From a virus, in the IMG/VR virus record IMGVR_UViG_3300048919_000123, positions 19,665 through 83,664 of that record: DNA of 64,000 nt; one strand, 5' to 3'. Positions 1 to 18,196 of this stretch are shown in pieces. Positions within the stretch are counted from its first letter, which is position 1; the number at the start of each line of letters is the position of its first letter. Below the pieces are notes generated by a model, which did not search any database, was not told where the DNA came from, and saw only the letters and a program-made list of their open reading frames with translations. A program made the position numbers and the translations under genes.

Positions 1-3000
1 GTGAATGGGGAACTGGACGCATCACCAACTTGCAGGTTGGCTTCAGGCAGACCGGAAGTGGCCTGATCCAGTTGCTTGGTGCGGATCTGGCTGTAGATCC
101 GGTTGAACTCCTGCAGGCTTACCGTGCCTTCGTTCAGGCCCTTCTGCAGGACAGCCAGATCATTGGCAGCCACGCCGAACGGCGACTGGGCGTAGGAGTC
201 GCGCAGTTTATCCAGTGCAGCTGCCTCCTTGTCCAGCGCTAGTATGGCCTTGTAGTGGGTCAGGTTCAGCTCGCCGAGGGCTTTGTTTTCCTGATCCATG
301 GTGATGGTGCCGGCCGCGCGCAGGCGCTGCATCGCGGCGGTGCCTTTCTGCAGTTCCAGCTGGGCAGCGCTCGCCTCGTCGAACTTCTTGGCCAGCGCCG
401 TGTAGGTGCGCAGATCCTCTGCAGCCTGTCGATCATCCGTGCGGGTGGCTTTCGCGCCGGCCTTGTCAGACTTGGTCTCCAAGCCCTTGATCTGACCCAG
501 TACCTTCGCCTGTTCCTTGTACAGCTCGGTCACGGTTTTGACGTCCATGGCCTTGCCGTCGCCCGGGTTCTCGGCGGCTTTGATCTTCGCAGCGATGTCC
601 GCAGCCTGCTTCTGGTATGCGGCCATGTTCTCGGTGTCGCTGCGGGTTACCGCGGCGGCTGCCTGGCGTGCTTCGACGAGTTTGTTCTCCTCGTCGGTGA
701 CCTTCTCCTGAATCTTGGCGCGCTCGGCCTCCAGCTTGGCGATCCGGTTCACCGAGACTTCTGCCAGCTGCAGGCCCGGGCGCATGTCGGTGTTGCCCGC
801 CGCGATTGCTGCCTCATCCTGCTTGATGAGTTTGGCCTGCGCAGCTTTGGCTTCGGTGATCTGGTTCTCGATGTCCAGCAATTGCTGGGCGTTCGAGGTC
901 ACGTCCTTGTAGACCTTGGCGTCCGCCTCTTTCTTGGCGTCAGCTTCCAGGCTACTGATCGTCTCGGAGAACGGACGGACATTGCTCTGGGTGCGCAGGA
1001 GCTGGCCAGTGCCGAGTTCGACCTGCCGCTGGGCAAGCGCCTTCTCCTGCTCCAGGCGGCCGACGTCCTGCGCCAGCTTCAGGTTGCTGAAGCCGATGCC
1101 GCTGCGGCTCTGGCTCTGTTCCAGTTTGGCCTGGGCCAGGGTCAGGTCGTTGGTCAACCCGATCAGCTTCTGGATTCGGCGAGCCTGGTAATCGGCCTCG
1201 GTCGAGTAATCGTTGGTGGTGGTGCCGAGCTTGGCCAGCGACTCCTCGGAATCCTTGACCTTCTGGTCATAGGTGCCGACCAGCGAGCGCAAGCTCTCCA
1301 GCCGCTTGGTCAGCGGCGCGAGGTTCTCTTCCGATACCCCGGCGCCGCGCGCGTTGTTGATCAGCGTGACCTGGCTGGCGATCTGCGAGGACAGATCGGT
1401 CGAGCCCTGCTTATCGGCCTTGATCTGCTCTTTCAGGGCAGCCCGCTGACGCGCCAGCCCGGTCTCCTCGATGGACTGCTTGAGCTGGTCGTAACTGCTC
1501 TTGACGTCGTCCACCGAGTCCCGGTGCTTGATCACTTCCTCATCGGTGTTGGTGCTGAAGACCTCCCAGATCGCCGAGCCGATGCCGTAGATCAGACCCA
1601 CCCAGCCGAGCGCGCGCATCACCAGCCCGGCAGCGGCGGCGAACCGCGCCAGCCCTGCGGCGGCGGTGGCCGAGGCAGCGGTCATCGAACCCATGACGCC
1701 CACCGACCGGCCGAGGGTGGCGTTGAACATTTCGGTGTTGGTGCGCGCCACACTGGTGGCCATGCCCATGATCTGGTAGTTCGCCGAGGCACCCTTCAAC
1801 CGGTCAGCGACCAGGGTCAGCCTCTCGGCCGCGCCCTTCGCATCGGCGGAGAACGCCGCGAACACCGTGCCGCTGGCGAACTTGTAGGCGACGATACCGG
1901 CGACCACACGGGCAAAGGCTTCTGCCGTGGTCTGCGCCTGCACCAGCAACCGATCAAGGCCGGTGATGTCGGTGCCTTCCTTGTACGGCTCCATCATGTC
2001 GAGGACGTATTTGGACATGCGCGCGGTGGCTTCACGCAGCTTGCCGTCTAGCGAGCTGAACGCCTGCAGCTGGACTTCCTCAAGGCTCGACAGGAATTCC
2101 TTCCAGTCGAACTTCAGGTTGTCGGAGATGATCTTCTCCATCCGGTCACCGGCACCGGCGACATTCTGGTTCTGCTCAGCGAACTGGTTGTACTGGCTGG
2201 CGTTGTCGACCAGACCGGTTACCGCAGACGAAGCGTAGACGCCCACCAGGTTGGTGATTGCCGCCAGACGCTCAGGGCCTGGCAGGTCTTTGAAGGCGTT
2301 GCTCATCTGGTTGATGATGTTGGTCAGCGAGCGGGTATTGCCTTCCGCGTCGAGGATATCCAGGCCGTACTTGCTGATGACCTCCGAACCCTTTTTGGTT
2401 GGGTTCAGCAGGCTGGTGAACATCCGGCGCAGCGCCGAGCCCGAGCGGGAGCCCTTGATGCCGGAGTTGGCCATGGTCTCAATGGCCGCGGTGGTGTCCT
2501 GAATCGAGAAGCCGGCGGTCTTCGCCGCCGGGCCGGCGTAACTCAGCGAGTTGGCCAGCTGCTCAATGTCGGCGTTGGAGTTGTTGACCGCAGTCGCCAT
2601 CAGGTCGACGACACTCTGCAGCTCCTTGGCCTGCATGCCGAACGTCATGAGCACGTTGGTCGAGATGTCCGCCGAGCGCGCCATCGACACGTTCGCGAGG
2701 TTGGCCAGCTGCAGGGACGGCTTCAGCGCCACCAGCGCCTGGTTGGCAGACAGGCCAGCCATACCCAGTTGCTGCAGGCCTTCGCCAACTTCCGACGCGG
2801 TGAACACCGTGGTCTGACCCAGCGCCCTGACCTGCATCTCCAGCGCGCGCGACTGCATCTCGGCGTTGGTCAGCCAGTTGGCGCTGCTGTCGCCGGTGGA
2901 CATCACGGCGCGGGTGCGGGCCATGGTCGCGTAGAACTCGGCGCCGGTCACCACGGAGTCGCGCATCGCAGCCGCGATCCCGTAGGTTGCCGTGGCAGCC

Positions 3001-16982: not shown

Positions 16983-17131
16983 GGTCTGGAATCCGTTCGT
17001 TGAAAGAGGCGTCGGCGAGGGCTTCTTGCCCCGTTACAGCACACGTTGGCCGTTATCCGTGGGTCTATCGAGGATGAGGTAACTCTGGGTCACGGGCCGA
17101 CTTAACTCGGAGATTAGCGGGGTTTTGAGGC

Positions 17132-17164
17132 AAAAGAAAGCCCCGCTTTACGGGCGGGGCTTTC
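17132..17164 (-). terminator. Intrinsic terminator after RNA cluster
   Basis: GAAAGCCCCGC-loop-GCGGGGCTTTCTTTT. Confidence 0.8.
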
Positions 17165-17172
17165 AGTGTGTC

Positions 17173-17370
17173 AGTGACCAGGTGCCTCGCAGCGCTGTCG
17201 GGTGTGGTCGGGTAGCTACTCCTCCCATACTGTGCCGAAGCTTACTGTGCCCGCGGCTTACTGCGCGCTTTCCTGATCTACCGCACTTCAGTCCAGGTCG
17301 CCGGTGCCATTTCATCTCCGGCTTTGGGGCATACACCCTGCGCAATGGCTGACGCTTTCAACCTGGAACT
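17173..17370 (-). ncRNA. Candidate ~200-nt structured ncRNA (rod-shaped, 6S-like)
   Basis: No credible ORF between tRNA 3' end and terminator; nested 5'/3' complementary segments. Confidence 0.5.
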
Positions 17371-17371
17371 C

Positions 17372-17450
17372 TGGAAGAGGGTCAAGGATTCGAACCTTGG
17401 ATAGCCGGTGTCAAAGACCGGTGCCTTAAGCCAGACTTGGCGAACCCTCT
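17372..17450 (-). tRNA. tRNA-Gln (anticodon TTG)
   Basis: Cloverleaf: AGAGGGT/ACCCTCT acceptor, CCGGT-CTTTGAC-ACCGG anticodon arm, CAAGG-TTCGAAT-CCTTG T arm, encoded CCA. Confidence 0.95.
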
Positions 17451-17459
17451 GAAATTTGT

Positions 17460-17477
17460 TGAGACATCCTTGTCTCA
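17460..17477 (-). promoter_or_regulatory. CsrA/RsmA-type binding hairpin
   Basis: TGAGACA-AGGA-TGTCTCA; matches ACARGGAUGU consensus with GGA in loop. Confidence 0.55.
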
Positions 17478-17533
17478 CGAAACCGTCCTGCCCACTCGCA
17501 ACTCGCCTTGGAGTAGCCCGGAGATTAGCGAGA

Positions 17534-18196
17534 TTACTTGCAGTCGTCAATATCTCGTTCGGCTTGCGAGCGCTCATCAATGACTGCCCCGGCCAGCACT
17601 TGTGCCTGGCTGCGCGAGTCGATCTCACCGTCAGTGATCTTCGCTTGGCTGATCGTGCAGTTCTGCCGGCCGTACTCGCTCAGCGAGCCGTCGGCATTGA
17701 AGGCCTTTCCTATTTCGAACTCGAAGGGCTTCACGATCACCTGGTGCGCCAGCGAGGATTCTTCCACCGGACGCTCGGACACCGACCCACTGAACGCCGA
17801 TCGCAGGATATGCAGCCCTCCAATGATCGAGTTCCGCGCCAGCCAGGCAGCGGACTGATCCACACCGTCGTACTTGTCGAGCATCTCGATATCGGTGTAC
17901 AGCGTCCGGAACTTTTCCTCGAGCTCGTCCACCCGCTGGCGGCGTACTTCGTGGAAGCGCGCACGGTCGCTCAGATCCGCTTCGCCGATCAGATGGTCTG
18001 GCAGCCGGCCCGACTCACGGAGTTCTTCACCCAGTGGCGTGTCGCGGATCGCCGTGGCGATCTCGTTCAGCCCGGTCTTCACATCTTCCAGGCTGATACC
18101 CACCTCAAACCCCGAGGCGTAGGTTTGCCCGCTTTCGCTGGTGCCGAGCACGATTCGGCCCACGATCTGGTCAGGTCGGTCATTGGATTGGCTCAT
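17534..18196 (-). CDS. Hypothetical protein
   Basis: ~220 aa, AAGGAG RBS before MSQSNDRP. Confidence 0.75.
   Translation of the reverse strand: MSQSNDRPDQIVGRIVLGTSESGQTYASGFEVGISLEDVKTGLNEIATAIRDTPLGEELRESGRLPDHLIGEADLSDRARFHEVRRQRVDELEEKFRTLYTDIEMLDKYDGVDQSAAWLARNSIIGGLHILRSAFSGSVSERPVEESSLAHQVIVKPFEFEIGKAFNADGSLSEYGRQNCTISQAKITDGEIDSRSQAQVLAGAVIDERSQAERDIDDCK

What the first reader, a model, noticed from the sequence alone, without database searches (positions are those of the whole stretch)
17173..17370. Candidate phage-encoded 6S-like RNA co-transcribed with a tRNA
Seen: ~200 nt lie between the tRNA CCA end and a strong terminator, with no credible ORF. The minus strand folds by eye into one rod of nested helices: CCAGGT(17366-61)/ACCTGG(17183-78), CGCAG/CTGCG, GGTGT/ACACC (~17337/17205), GCCGGAG(17322-16)/CTTCGGC(17240-34) and an apical CCTGG/TCAGG, separated by purine-rich internal loops. 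Knowledge: 6S RNA is a ~180-200-nt rod that mimics an open promoter and sequesters sigma70-RNAP. The segments GCCCCAAAGCCGGAGAT and ACAGCGCTGCGAGGCACCTGG resemble my recollection of the gammaproteobacterial 6S 5' and 3' arms (unverified). Inference: a late-arm RNA decoy for host RNA polymerase, released by tRNA processing, could shut down host or early sigma70 transcription. I know of no characterised phage example. The central bubble looks smaller than in canonical 6S and an alternative 5' fold exists, so it may instead be a new ncRNA class.
Basis: partly seen in the sequence, partly recalled or inferred. Interest (0 to 1): 0.85.

Follow-up and report, generated by a model that had tools for sequence, protein, structure and literature searches.

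The report
Two folded RNAs behind phage tRNA
The 200 bases after this Pseudomonas phage's glutamine tRNA gene are not a 6S-like decoy for RNA polymerase but two separate, portable folded RNAs, one shaped like a tRNA without an anticodon loop, whose jobs are still unknown.

Summary
The window is an uncultured relative of Pseudomonas phages Lana and PMBT3. The single rod is not supported. It costs 19 kcal/mol more than the best fold, with pair probabilities near 1e-7. Relatives carry the two halves separately. No 6S match (RF00013) appears at E<=10 in the window or the whole 83.7-kb record.

The stretch is two modules. Module A (17291-17368) is a cloverleaf: an 8-bp closing stem, a 4-bp arm, a short variable arm and a 5-bp arm, with two loops complementary over 5-6 bases. 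It is found in 4 distinct phages, always 3-5 nt after tRNA-Gln, with compensatory changes in the closing stem, the 5-bp arm and the loop-loop pairing. Module B (17176-17278) is a branched rod found in 3 phages, also with compensatory changes.

Among 11 relatives, A, B, other folded modules, extra tRNAs and an HNH endonuclease come and go between one conserved promoter and terminator. The closest precedents are T4 RNAC/RNAD and PAK_P3 sRNA2. Expression and function are untested. Earlier unchecked notes of this scan describe similar tRNA-shaped modules in other phages.

The parts
17545..17550 (-). -35 element TTGACG of the promoter of the tRNA/RNA unit
   Evidence: Read. It lies 17 nt upstream of TAATCT. 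The layout TTGACR-17-TAAnyT is kept in the relatives' sequences. The simple consensus scan did not call it, so it is a promoter by inference.
17522..17527 (-). -10 element TAATCT, inside the 12-mer CGCTAATCTCCG (17519-17530)
   Evidence: The 12-mer occurs exactly twice in the window, here and at 17108-17119, both on the minus strand and flanking the unit.
17461..17476 (-). Leader hairpin GAGAC-AAGGAU-GUCUC, about 10 nt upstream of the tRNA
   Evidence: Located. The loop is kept while the stem differs in relatives (GAGC/GCUC, GGGCC/GGCCC, GUCC/GGAC, GACCC/GGGUC), read by eye. It is the only GGA of the unit that lies wholly in a predicted loop.
17372..17450 (-). tRNA-Gln (anticodon UUG) with encoded CCA
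   Evidence: ARAGORN; Rfam RF00005, 56.5 bits.
17291..17368 (-). Module A, a 78-nt cloverleaf. P1 pairs 17367-17360 with 17299-17292. Pa pairs 17355-17352 with 17343-17340. Pb pairs 17338-17335 with 17330-17327. Pc pairs 17322-17318 with 17304-17300. The proposed loop-loop pairing joins 17349-17345 to 17310-17306.
   Evidence: The cloverleaf is the MFE fold in 3 of 4 homologues folded alone and is the RNAalifold consensus. A covariance model built without L037 finds L037 at 69.8 bits. P1 has pair probability 0.93.
17279..17290 (-). 12-nt linker between the modules, the slot where relatives carry tRNA-Met
   Evidence: PMBT3 and L042 have tRNA-Met here. A near-identical contig of run X5 has 136 extra letters at 17288 (table 8).
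17176..17278 (-). Module B, a 103-nt branched rod. B1 pairs 17278-17272 with 17182-17176. B2 pairs 17265-17261 with 17192-17188. A conserved hairpin motif GGAGUAGCUACCCG lies at 17222-17209.
   Evidence: B1 and B2 appear in the MFE fold of 3 of 3 homologues. Their pair probabilities are 0.999 and 0.98. Compensatory changes are tabulated. The conserved motif is visible.
17165..17175 (-). Conserved single-stranded tract (ACUGACACACU) ahead of the terminator
   Evidence: The tract ACACUG is kept ahead of the terminator in 4 of 4 sequences of alignment A1, whichever module precedes it.
17126..17164 (-). Intrinsic terminator: stem 17164-17136 followed by a U tract
   Evidence: Terminator scan: 11 pairs, 8 of them G-C, tail TTTTGCCTCA. 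It is conserved in all relatives.

Best explanation
The stretch encodes two independent, portable structured non-coding RNAs in the phage's tRNA transcription unit.

Shown:
- One sigma70-type promoter and one intrinsic terminator bracket, in order, a leader hairpin, tRNA-Gln, module A, a 12-nt linker and module B.
- Module A is a four-way junction with tRNA-like proportions: an 8-bp closing stem stacked directly on a 5-bp arm, a 4-bp arm with an 8-nt loop, and a short variable arm where the anticodon arm would be.
- The loops of the 4-bp and 5-bp arms are complementary over 5-6 bases.
- Module A always starts 3-5 nt after the CCA of tRNA-Gln, which is the spacing between neighbouring tRNAs in the relatives' arrays.
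- Its helices and the loop-loop pairing keep pairing through changes on both sides.
- It is as conserved between the window and its closest relative as the tRNA itself.
- Module B is a separate branched rod with its own compensatory changes and a conserved hairpin loop containing the palindrome UAGCUA.
- Among relatives, A, B, other folded modules and extra tRNAs are gained and lost individually.

Inferred:
- The primary transcript is cut by the host tRNA-processing enzymes (RNase P at the tRNA 5' end, 3' trimming at the CCA).
- This releases module A, about 80-90 nt, as an L-shaped tRNA mimic held by the loop-loop kiss, and module B plus the terminator, about 140 nt, as stable small RNAs.
- These then most likely act by binding a protein that recognises tRNA shape or the conserved loop, rather than by base-pairing to mRNAs. 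The target is unknown.
For: Anatomy.

Fold:
- Strand-specific fold: minus z -2.25, plus z +0.24.
- Two-module helices have pair probabilities of 0.93-0.999.
- The same cloverleaf is the MFE in 3 of 4 module A homologues folded alone (z -1.9, -2.6, -2.3; PMBT3 z -1.3 with another fold) and is the RNAalifold consensus.

Conservation and pairing:
- Model R1, built from the window, PMBT3 and L042, finds L037 at 69.8 bits, E about 1e-16.
- Tool count on the model-fitted alignment: 92.5% of 67 cells are paired, against 22-44% when partners are slid; 5 of 500 shuffles reach this.
- Hand-registered table. Module A: 22 positions, 4 with changes on both sides (1 in P1, 2 in Pc, 1 in the kiss), 2 one-sided, 1 non-pair cell. 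Module B, helices B1 and B2: 12 positions, 3 double-sided, 1 one-sided, no non-pair.
- A variant contig turns the U-G pair of Pa into U-A.
- G-U pairs fit only the minus strand.
- Window versus L037: module A 88.6% identical, tRNA-Gln 87.3%, third codon positions of the next gene 72%.

Modularity:
- L037 group: A alone. L043: B without A. PMBT3 and L042: tRNA-Met between A and the rest. L042: A, Met, C, B. Lana and L040: neither A nor B.
- X5 has a 136-nt insert between A and B; X7 has a swapped interior of A.

Precedents: T4 RNAC/RNAD are transcribed from the tRNA region and their roles are unknown (PMC3014915, passage). PAK_P3 sRNA2 is abundant late and lies between two phage tRNAs (PMC4933390, passage).
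Against: - No expression data exist. No RNA run holds the stretch, so discrete processed species are inferred only.
- The families are tiny: 4 distinct copies of A, forming essentially two lineages, and 3 of B. Covariation is therefore anecdotal. In one search only 2 pairs change on both sides (110 of 500 shuffles reach that), and the covariation score is reached by 26 of 500 shuffles.
- The extra compensatory changes in Pc depend on my shifting the register by one base by hand.
- L042 has a G-A mismatch in Pa.
- PMBT3's own MFE uses the loop-loop pairs as a nested helix instead of the cloverleaf.
- Single-sequence z-scores are modest (-1.1 to -2.9).
- Module A has none of the sequence marks of a tRNA: ARAGORN is silent even at a 40% threshold, and there is no second Rfam tRNA hit.
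- The tRNA-mimic and protein-binding steps are inference.
- No mRNA target was found for the pre-terminator tract (15 matches against 22.7 expected).
Confidence: 0.62

Rival explanations
1. The modules are cis-acting furniture or debris of the tRNA array. They would be spacers or decayed tRNA genes whose hairpins only help processing, protect tRNA ends or insulate the terminator, with no function of their own once released.
For: - Module A sits exactly in a tRNA slot, where relatives carry tRNA-Trp, His or Met right after tRNA-Gln.
- The region is a hot spot of gain and loss. One relative has an HNH endonuclease ORF beside a broken tRNA-Met.
- The modules are dispensable: L045 has only tRNAs between promoter and terminator, and 5 relatives' whole records lack A.
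Against: - Module A is as conserved as the functional tRNA and more conserved than third codon positions.
- Its stems and the loop-loop pairing are kept by changes on both sides, which decay would not do.
- No sequence similarity to a tRNA is detectable.
- The conserved loop of module B points to a specific contact.
Confidence: 0.22
2. One reading: the whole 200 nt form one 6S-like rod that mimics an open promoter and sequesters host sigma70 RNA polymerase.
For: The length, about 200 nt, is right for 6S. The RNA is co-transcribed with a tRNA and ends at a terminator.
Against: - No RF00013 match at E<=10 in the region or the whole record, with controls ringing in 7 of 14 genomes.
- The rod is 19.3 kcal/mol worse than the MFE, with pair probabilities around 1e-7.
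- The halves occur separately or are split by a tRNA in relatives.
- The outer helix CCAGGU/ACCUGG(17183-78) has no counterpart in L042, whose module B ends CCUGAUC.
Confidence: 0.02
3. The transcript is an RsmA/CsrA sponge of the RsmY/RsmZ kind, built from GGA motifs.
For: - The leader hairpin upstream of the tRNA has a CAAGGAUG loop on a covarying stem.
- Relatives carry further hairpins with AGGA loops (GCGCC-AGGAU-GGCG in Lana, L040 and L042; GGAGA-AGGA-UCUCC in PMBT3 and L093).
- There is a weak RsmY hit on Lana (22.1 bits, E 0.23, gathering score 57).
Against: - Inside the finding GGA is not enriched (5 observed, 4.17 expected; 406 of 1000 shuffles reach 5), and none lies wholly in a predicted loop.
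- In the whole unit there are 7 GGA against 7.73 expected.
- There is no Rsm family hit on the window on the RNA strand. RsmY scored 15.6 bits on the opposite strand over the terminator, which shows how such scores arise.
- CAAGGAWG is common on coding strands of this phage as a ribosome-binding-site-like word (17 against 5.2 expected).
Confidence: 0.05
4. The stretch encodes a small protein: the 60-aa ORF 17163-17345 on the minus strand or the 75-aa ORF 17125-17352 on the plus strand.
For: Both ORFs exist.
Against: - Both start with TTG.
- The homologues of module A differ in length by -1, +34 and -4 nt, none a multiple of three.
- The L037 group lacks the 3' two-thirds of the ORF altogether.
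- A near-identical contig carries a 136-nt insert in its middle.
- The substitutions preserve base pairs, not codons.
Confidence: 0.02

Closest known systems
Phage T4 RNAC and RNAD (small stable RNAs of the T4 tRNA region)
   Same: They are small non-coding RNAs transcribed from a phage tRNA region, with biological role still unknown (PMC3014915, passage seen; PMC9697503, passage seen, classes them as late RNAs).
   Different: There is no sequence relation: no phage record outside the Lana/PMBT3 group matched the stretch. Host and phage type differ. Expression and processing are proven for T4 and untested here. That RNAC/RNAD have tRNA-like ends cut by RNase P is my recollection, not seen in a call.
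Pseudomonas phage PAK_P3 sRNA2
   Same: It is a small RNA of about 100 nt lying between two phage-encoded tRNAs of a Pseudomonas phage. It is abundant late and carries a tRNA-derived (T-loop) stretch (PMC4933390, passage).
   Different: PAK_P3 is an unrelated myovirus. Module A has no T-loop sequence and no detectable similarity to any tRNA. sRNA2 is shown to be expressed; modules A and B are not.
tRNA and tRNA-shaped non-decoding RNAs (mascRNA; the tRNA-like domain of YrlA-type Y RNAs, both recalled)
   Same: Module A shares the cloverleaf topology. The closing stem is stacked without a linker on a 5-bp arm. There is a 4-bp arm with an 8-nt loop, one base between the second and third arms, and 3-5 bases before the fourth. 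It sits in a tRNA slot of an array.
   Different: - There is no 7-nt anticodon loop; the arm is 3-4 bp with a 3-4-nt loop, or a roughly 50-nt insert in PMBT3.
- The T-like loop has 12-13 nt and no T-loop consensus.
- The D-like loop has no GG.
- No CCA is encoded.
- The closing stem is 8 bp and the first linker 4 nt.
- The elbow would be made by 5-6 Watson-Crick pairs instead of the T-loop/D-loop contacts.
- No Rfam family matches.
6S RNA (Rfam RF00013)
   Same: Only the overall length of the stretch, and the fact that it is a non-coding RNA ending at a terminator.
   Different: There is no model match, no single rod, no conserved central bubble, and the two halves are inherited separately.
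RsmY/RsmZ (Rfam RF00195, RF00166)
   Same: One consensus GGA-loop hairpin lies in the same transcript, in the leader outside the finding. Similar hairpins occur in relatives' modules.
   Different: GGA is not enriched and is not loop-exposed in modules A and B. There is no family match above noise.

Membership tests
6S RNA (RF00013) | Match to the family covariance model | tested here: not met
   No hit at gathering score, none at E<=10 on 17000-17600, and none at E<=10 on the whole 83.7-kb record, while 7 of 14 control genomes rang.
6S RNA (RF00013) | One long rod closed by the 5' and 3' ends of a roughly 180-200-nt RNA | tested here: not met
   The forced rod gives -57.5 kcal/mol against an MFE of -76.8, with pair probabilities from 4e-10 to 2e-7.
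6S RNA (RF00013) | Large central bubble that mimics an open promoter, conserved among homologues | tested here: not met
   No common rod exists to hold a bubble. The 5' and 3' halves occur alone or separated by a tRNA in relatives.
6S RNA (RF00013) | Binds sigma70 holoenzyme and templates pRNA | not testable with these tools
   Needs a gel shift and a pRNA assay.
tRNA (RF00005) | Recognised by tRNA models | tested here: not met
   ARAGORN finds only tRNA-Gln even at a 40% threshold. There is no second RF00005 hit at E<=10.
tRNA (RF00005) | Cloverleaf of four stems around one junction, with the acceptor stem stacked on the T stem | tested here: met
   The MFE fold of 3 of 4 homologues and the RNAalifold consensus give P1, Pa, Pb and Pc, with no base between Pc and P1. 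Stem lengths are 8/4/3-4/5 rather than 7/4/5/5.
tRNA (RF00005) | Seven-base anticodon loop on a 5-bp stem; T-loop and D-loop consensus bases; 3' CCA | tested here: not met
   Pb has a 3-4-nt loop or a long insert. The loops read CAGCCAUU and AGAUGAAAUGGCA. The bases after P1 are CUGA or CCGA, not CCA.
Small RNAs of phage tRNA clusters (T4 RNAC/RNAD, PAK_P3 sRNA2) | Lies inside the transcription unit of phage tRNA genes and is non-coding | tested here: met
   Promoter, tRNA-Gln, A, B and terminator lie on one strand. The ORFs are not conserved.
Small RNAs of phage tRNA clusters (T4 RNAC/RNAD, PAK_P3 sRNA2) | Accumulates as a discrete stable RNA during infection | not testable with these tools
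   No RNA run holds the stretch.
RsmY/RsmZ-type CsrA/RsmA sponge | Several GGA motifs exposed in hairpin loops; match to an Rsm family model | tested here: not met
   5 GGA against 4.17 expected, none wholly in a predicted loop. There is no Rsm hit on the RNA strand of the window.

The most novel reading that the evidence does not exclude
Module A is one example of a wider, undescribed class of portable 'pseudo-tRNA' genes in phage tRNA islands. These would be anticodon-less RNAs that imitate the L-shape of a tRNA, here with the elbow built from a Watson-Crick loop-loop kiss. They would be released by the host's own tRNA-processing enzymes and would act as decoys or inhibitors for proteins that recognise tRNA shape, for example host tRNA-cleaving defence nucleases or tRNA-modifying and repair enzymes. 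Like accessory tRNAs, they would be swapped between phages as counter-defence cargo. Module B, with its conserved palindromic UAGCUA loop, would be a second cargo RNA that may dimerise or dock on a specific protein.
Probability: 0.15. Interest if true: 0.8.

Novelty: new variant of a known kind. Interest (0 to 1): 0.45.

Why it matters
Phage tRNA islands are usually annotated as tRNAs plus empty spacers. Here the spacers are conserved, modular folded RNAs that matched no Rfam family in the searches, and they are exchanged among related phages like accessory genes.

If they are tRNA mimics or protein decoys, they would add an RNA layer to phage takeover or counter-defence. They would also give a testable handle on the 50-year-old puzzle of what RNAs such as T4 RNAC/RNAD do. 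PMBT3 is a cultivable, published phage that carries module A, so the experiments are feasible.

The negative result also matters: the attractive idea of a phage 6S mimic does not hold here.

Tried and rejected
- 6S: rejected.
- Any Rfam family for A, B or the relatives' modules: only tRNAs, terminator-driven noise and a sub-threshold RsmY hit on Lana.
- tRNA pseudogene: ARAGORN is silent down to a 40% threshold.
- Host origin or prophage copies: the unit's conserved downstream block and a 24-nt module A pattern each gave 0 hits in genome contigs.
- More homologues:
  - Two module A patterns in viral contigs gave 32 and 42 loci. Only those from the PMBT3, L042-type and L037-type records were real; the rest were chance matches in coding DNA.
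  - The downstream block gave 9 viral and 4 metagenome loci, all but one (L093) from records already in hand.
  - The module B pattern gave only the L042 and L043 records.
  - Model R1 found no further copy in 12 sources totalling 123.7 kb, apart from a 13.5-bit chance hit at window 2139-2216. It found none in five relatives' whole records apart from a 13.2-bit hit in Lana.
- Expression: no RNA holder is listed for the stretch. Only DNA contigs could be laid.
- mRNA target of the pre-terminator tract in the phage: 15 matches at up to 3 mismatches against 22.7 expected.
- RsmA sponge: GGA is not enriched.
- MAFFT alignments A2, A3 and A7 mis-register 1-nt indels at helix ends. I therefore used a model-fitted alignment (A6) and a hand-registered table, both of which lean towards the structure. 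In one search the printed position of the L037 Pa 3' strand is wrong (a later GCGC was picked); the pair letters are unaffected.
- Papers:
  - The PMBT3 paper mentions only three tRNAs (passages).
  - The phage structured-RNA survey PMC10690425 mentions tRNA-like candidates only in general terms (passages). Its supplementary tables, which I could not open, might list this locus.
  - The Grad-seq paper PMC8545117 has no phage 6S (passages).
  - I found no described phage 6S mimic or named family for these modules in searches. This covers only the held library.
Full report
WHAT THE WINDOW IS. The window is 64 kb of an 83.7-kb virus record. Its terminase region is about 81% identical to Pseudomonas phages Lana (MK473373) and PMBT3 (MG596799), both lytic siphoviruses of about 88 kb. 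The finding lies on the minus strand at the head of the packaging and structural genes.

CHECK OF THE OBSERVATION. ARAGORN and Rfam place one tRNA, tRNA-Gln(UUG), at 17372-17450 on the minus strand. A terminator with an 11-pair stem and a U tract lies at 17164-17136 on the same strand. Between them are about 205 nt, with only a 60-aa TTG ORF on the minus strand and a 75-aa TTG ORF on the plus strand.

The RNA strand folds better than shuffled sequence (z -2.25; 5 of 200 shuffles fold as well). The opposite strand does not (z +0.24; 112 of 200). The raw observation therefore holds.

THE ROD DOES NOT HOLD. The best compatible structure is -57.5 kcal/mol, against -76.8 for the free fold. In the ensemble those helices have mean pair probabilities of 4e-10 to 2e-7. 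The free fold splits the RNA in two. CCAGGU (17366-61) pairs with the nearer ACCUGG (17298-93), and a second domain is closed by GAUCAGG (17278-72) with CCUGGUC (17182-76). These helices have probabilities of 0.93 and 0.999.

NO 6S. Rfam gives nothing but the tRNA at gathering scores over the window. At E<=10 on 17000-17600 the only other hits are low scores on the terminator hairpin, on both strands. RF00013 run alone on the whole record finds nothing at E<=10, while the same search rings in 7 of 14 control genomes.

RELATIVES SHOW TWO MODULES. I collected the same intergenic unit from 11 distinct relatives. Three came from GenBank (PMBT3, Lana, UAntarctica). The others came from IMG/VR and metagenomes through the neighbouring IHF-like gene and a conserved DNA block.

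All relatives share a promoter of the form TTGACR-17-TAAnyT, a leader hairpin, tRNA-Gln first (PMBT3 has tRNA-Pro before it), a terminator, and a conserved structured 5' UTR of the IHF-like gene. What lies between tRNA-Gln and the terminator differs:

| Phage | Content between tRNA-Gln and terminator |
|---|---|
| Window | A, B |
| L037 group (three identical contigs, the closest relative) | A only, then the terminator |
| PMBT3 | A with a roughly 34-nt longer interior, tRNA-Met, about 180 nt of other folded RNA |
| L042 | A, tRNA-Met, a Lana-type module C, B |
| L043 | a different rod-like module D, B |
| Lana | about 60 nt, C |
| L040 | tRNA-Trp, C |
| L045 | tRNA-Met, tRNA-Asp |
| L044 | tRNA-Trp, tRNA-His, tRNA-Met |
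| UAntarctica | tRNA-His, tRNA-Met |
| L093 | an HNH endonuclease ORF and a broken tRNA-Met |

Contigs of public DNA runs add two more forms. One is nearly identical to the window but has 136 extra letters at 17288, exactly in the 12-nt linker between A and B. The other has 39 nt of A's interior replaced by 72 other letters. A 200-nt rod cannot be the unit of function when its halves are inherited separately.

MODULE A (17291-17368). Folded alone, 3 of the 4 distinct homologues give the same cloverleaf as their minimum-energy structure. It has an 8-bp closing stem P1, a 4-bp arm Pa with an 8-nt loop, a short variable arm Pb, and a 5-bp arm Pc with a 12-13-nt loop. Pc runs straight into P1. PMBT3's own MFE instead pairs the two loops as a nested helix. 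RNAalifold on the four sequences returns the cloverleaf.

A covariance model built from the window, PMBT3 and L042 finds the L037 copy, which it had not seen, at 69.8 bits. It finds no other copy in 123.7 kb of loci or in five further relatives' whole genomes.

On the model-fitted alignment 92.5% of 67 cells pair, against 22-44% when partners are slid by 1-3 columns. Five of 500 column shuffles reach this. That count shows four unpaired cells in Pc for PMBT3 and L042. They disappear if their 5' strand is moved by one base (CCCCG/CGGGG against GCCGG/CCGGC in the window).

With that hand register, 22 helix positions include 4 with changes on both sides: one in P1 (A-U to G-C in L037), two in Pc, and one in the loop-loop pairing. 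Two positions have one-sided G-U changes, and there is one mismatch, G-A in Pa of L042. A variant contig changes the U-G pair of Pa to U-A.

The loops of Pa and Pc are complementary: GCCAU(U) with (A)AUGGC in the window and L037, and (A)GCCAG with CUGGC(U) in PMBT3 and L042. Both Pc and this pairing covary, and they can coexist only as a loop-loop kiss.

Between the window and L037, module A is 88.6% identical, tRNA-Gln 87.3%, and third codon positions of the next gene 72%. Module A therefore evolves like the tRNA beside it.

HOW tRNA-LIKE IS MODULE A? In topology it is very tRNA-like. It has four stems, a closing stem stacked on a 5-bp arm, and a 4-bp arm with an 8-nt loop. One base separates the second and third arms, and 3-5 bases precede the fourth. 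The module starts 3-5 nt after the preceding CCA, like the next tRNA in the relatives' arrays.

In sequence it is not tRNA-like at all. There is no 7-nt anticodon loop, no T-loop or D-loop consensus and no CCA. ARAGORN is silent at a 40% threshold, and there is no second RF00005 hit. I therefore call it tRNA-shaped, not a tRNA.

MODULE B (17176-17278). The closing helix B1 and a second helix B2 appear in the MFE of all three homologues (z -1.8, -2.9, -1.1). In the hand table, 12 positions hold 3 changes on both sides, 1 one-sided change and no mismatch. The interior is less certain. It contains a hairpin whose loop motif GGA(G/U)UAGCUA(C/A)CCG is nearly invariant and includes the palindrome UAGCUA. 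A 22-nt pattern for it finds only the L042 and L043 records in IMG/VR.

OTHER READINGS:
- Protein: rejected. Indels are not in threes, one relative truncates the ORF and one variant interrupts it.
- RsmA/CsrA sponge: not for this stretch. GGA occurs 5 times against 4.17 expected, and none lies wholly in a predicted loop. The leader hairpin upstream of the tRNA is, however, a textbook GGA hairpin with a covarying stem. The Lana-type module also gave a sub-threshold RsmY score.
- Base-pairing sRNA: no enriched target for the conserved pre-terminator tract in the phage.
- Debris of tRNA genes: possible for the origin of the modules, but hard to square with conservation equal to the tRNA and with compensatory changes.

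MECHANISM. Shown: the anatomy, the strand, the folds and the modular inheritance.

Inferred:
- Transcription runs from the sigma70-type promoter to the terminator.
- RNase P and the 3'-trimming enzymes that mature tRNA-Gln separate the leader, the tRNA and the A-B RNA.
- Module A folds into an L-shape held by the kiss and is perhaps itself cut out like a tRNA, since relatives have a tRNA on its 3' side.
- Both modules persist as small stable RNAs that act by binding proteins.

I give about 0.6 to 'two functional portable structured RNAs', about 0.2 to 'structural furniture or debris', and a few percent to the rest.

WHAT IS KNOWN. [quoted passage not shown] Pseudomonas phage PAK_P3 makes an abundant late sRNA2 of about 100 nt between two phage tRNAs (PMC4933390, passage). 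A survey of viral structured RNAs reports tRNA-like candidates only in general terms (PMC10690425, passages). The PMBT3 paper lists only its three tRNAs (passages).

I found no description of these modules or of a phage 6S mimic in six literature searches. This covers only the held library, and supplements were closed.

Earlier notes of this scan agree. One read this same stretch as a two-domain RNA with a kissing loop (e1-6131826). Others describe portable folded RNAs behind tRNAs in another phage (e1-6119073) and tRNA-sized cloverleaves with complementary loops in tRNA slots of unrelated phages (e1-5883343, e1-5786151). These are unchecked AI notes and I used them only as context.

VERDICT. 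What is there is a new variant of a known but unexplained kind: small structured RNAs riding in phage tRNA operons. One is shaped like a tRNA. The families are small and there is no expression evidence yet.

Noticed in passing
window 17461-17476 (minus): The leader hairpin GAGAC-AAGGAU-GUCUC lies about 10 nt upstream of tRNA-Gln. The CAAGGAUG loop is kept while the stem differs in nearly every relative (GAGC/GCUC, GGGCC/GGCCC, GUCC/GGAC, GACCC/GGGUC, GUGUUUC/GAGACAC). It matches the CsrA/RsmA hairpin consensus (recalled) but could also be a processing or ribosome-binding-site-like signal.
   Followed up: partly
window 16983-17125 (minus): The roughly 140-nt 5' UTR of the IHF-like gene is highly conserved. 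It starts with a second exact copy of CGCTAATCTCCG (17108-17119). It is closed by GUCGGC...GCCGAC and holds a hairpin GGGGC-AAGAA-GCCCU whose stem covaries (GGAGC/GCUCC in L040, L042 and L043). It is a candidate late-operon regulatory leader.
   Followed up: no
L093 (RCMZ01000423.1), about 650 nt upstream of the conserved block: An HNH-type endonuclease ORF lies next to a truncated tRNA-Met in the same intergenic unit. This suggests that homing endonucleases drive the turnover of this RNA island.
   Followed up: no
L041/L002 (Lana) about 2229-2350; L040; L042: A further folded module C is shared by Lana, L040 and L042. It has a hairpin GCGCC-AGGAU-GGCG and an inner stem that differs compensatorily (GGC/GCC against CCC/GGG). 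On Lana it gives a sub-threshold RsmY score (22.1 bits, E 0.23).
   Followed up: partly
L043 2112-2205: Another rod-like module D (UUCGAGAC...GUCUCGA closing helix) sits in the slot right after tRNA-Gln, where the window has module A.
   Followed up: no
L035 (PMBT3) and L093, region after tRNA-Met: Both share a hairpin GGAGA-AGGA-UCUCC inside about 180 nt of folded RNA that is unlike module B in sequence.
   Followed up: no
L002 1604-1677 (phage Lana, MK473373): ARAGORN and Rfam find a tRNA-Gln in Lana that is not among the annotated features of the GenBank record.
   Followed up: partly
window, whole: CAAGGAWG occurs 17 times against 5.2 expected. All copies before 19 kb are on the minus strand and all copies after 20 kb are on the plus strand, following the direction of the genes. 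It is probably this phage's ribosome-binding-site word.
   Followed up: no
window 17209-17222 (minus): The near-invariant loop of module B contains the self-complementary hexamer UAGCUA, which could let two copies of the RNA kiss.
   Followed up: no
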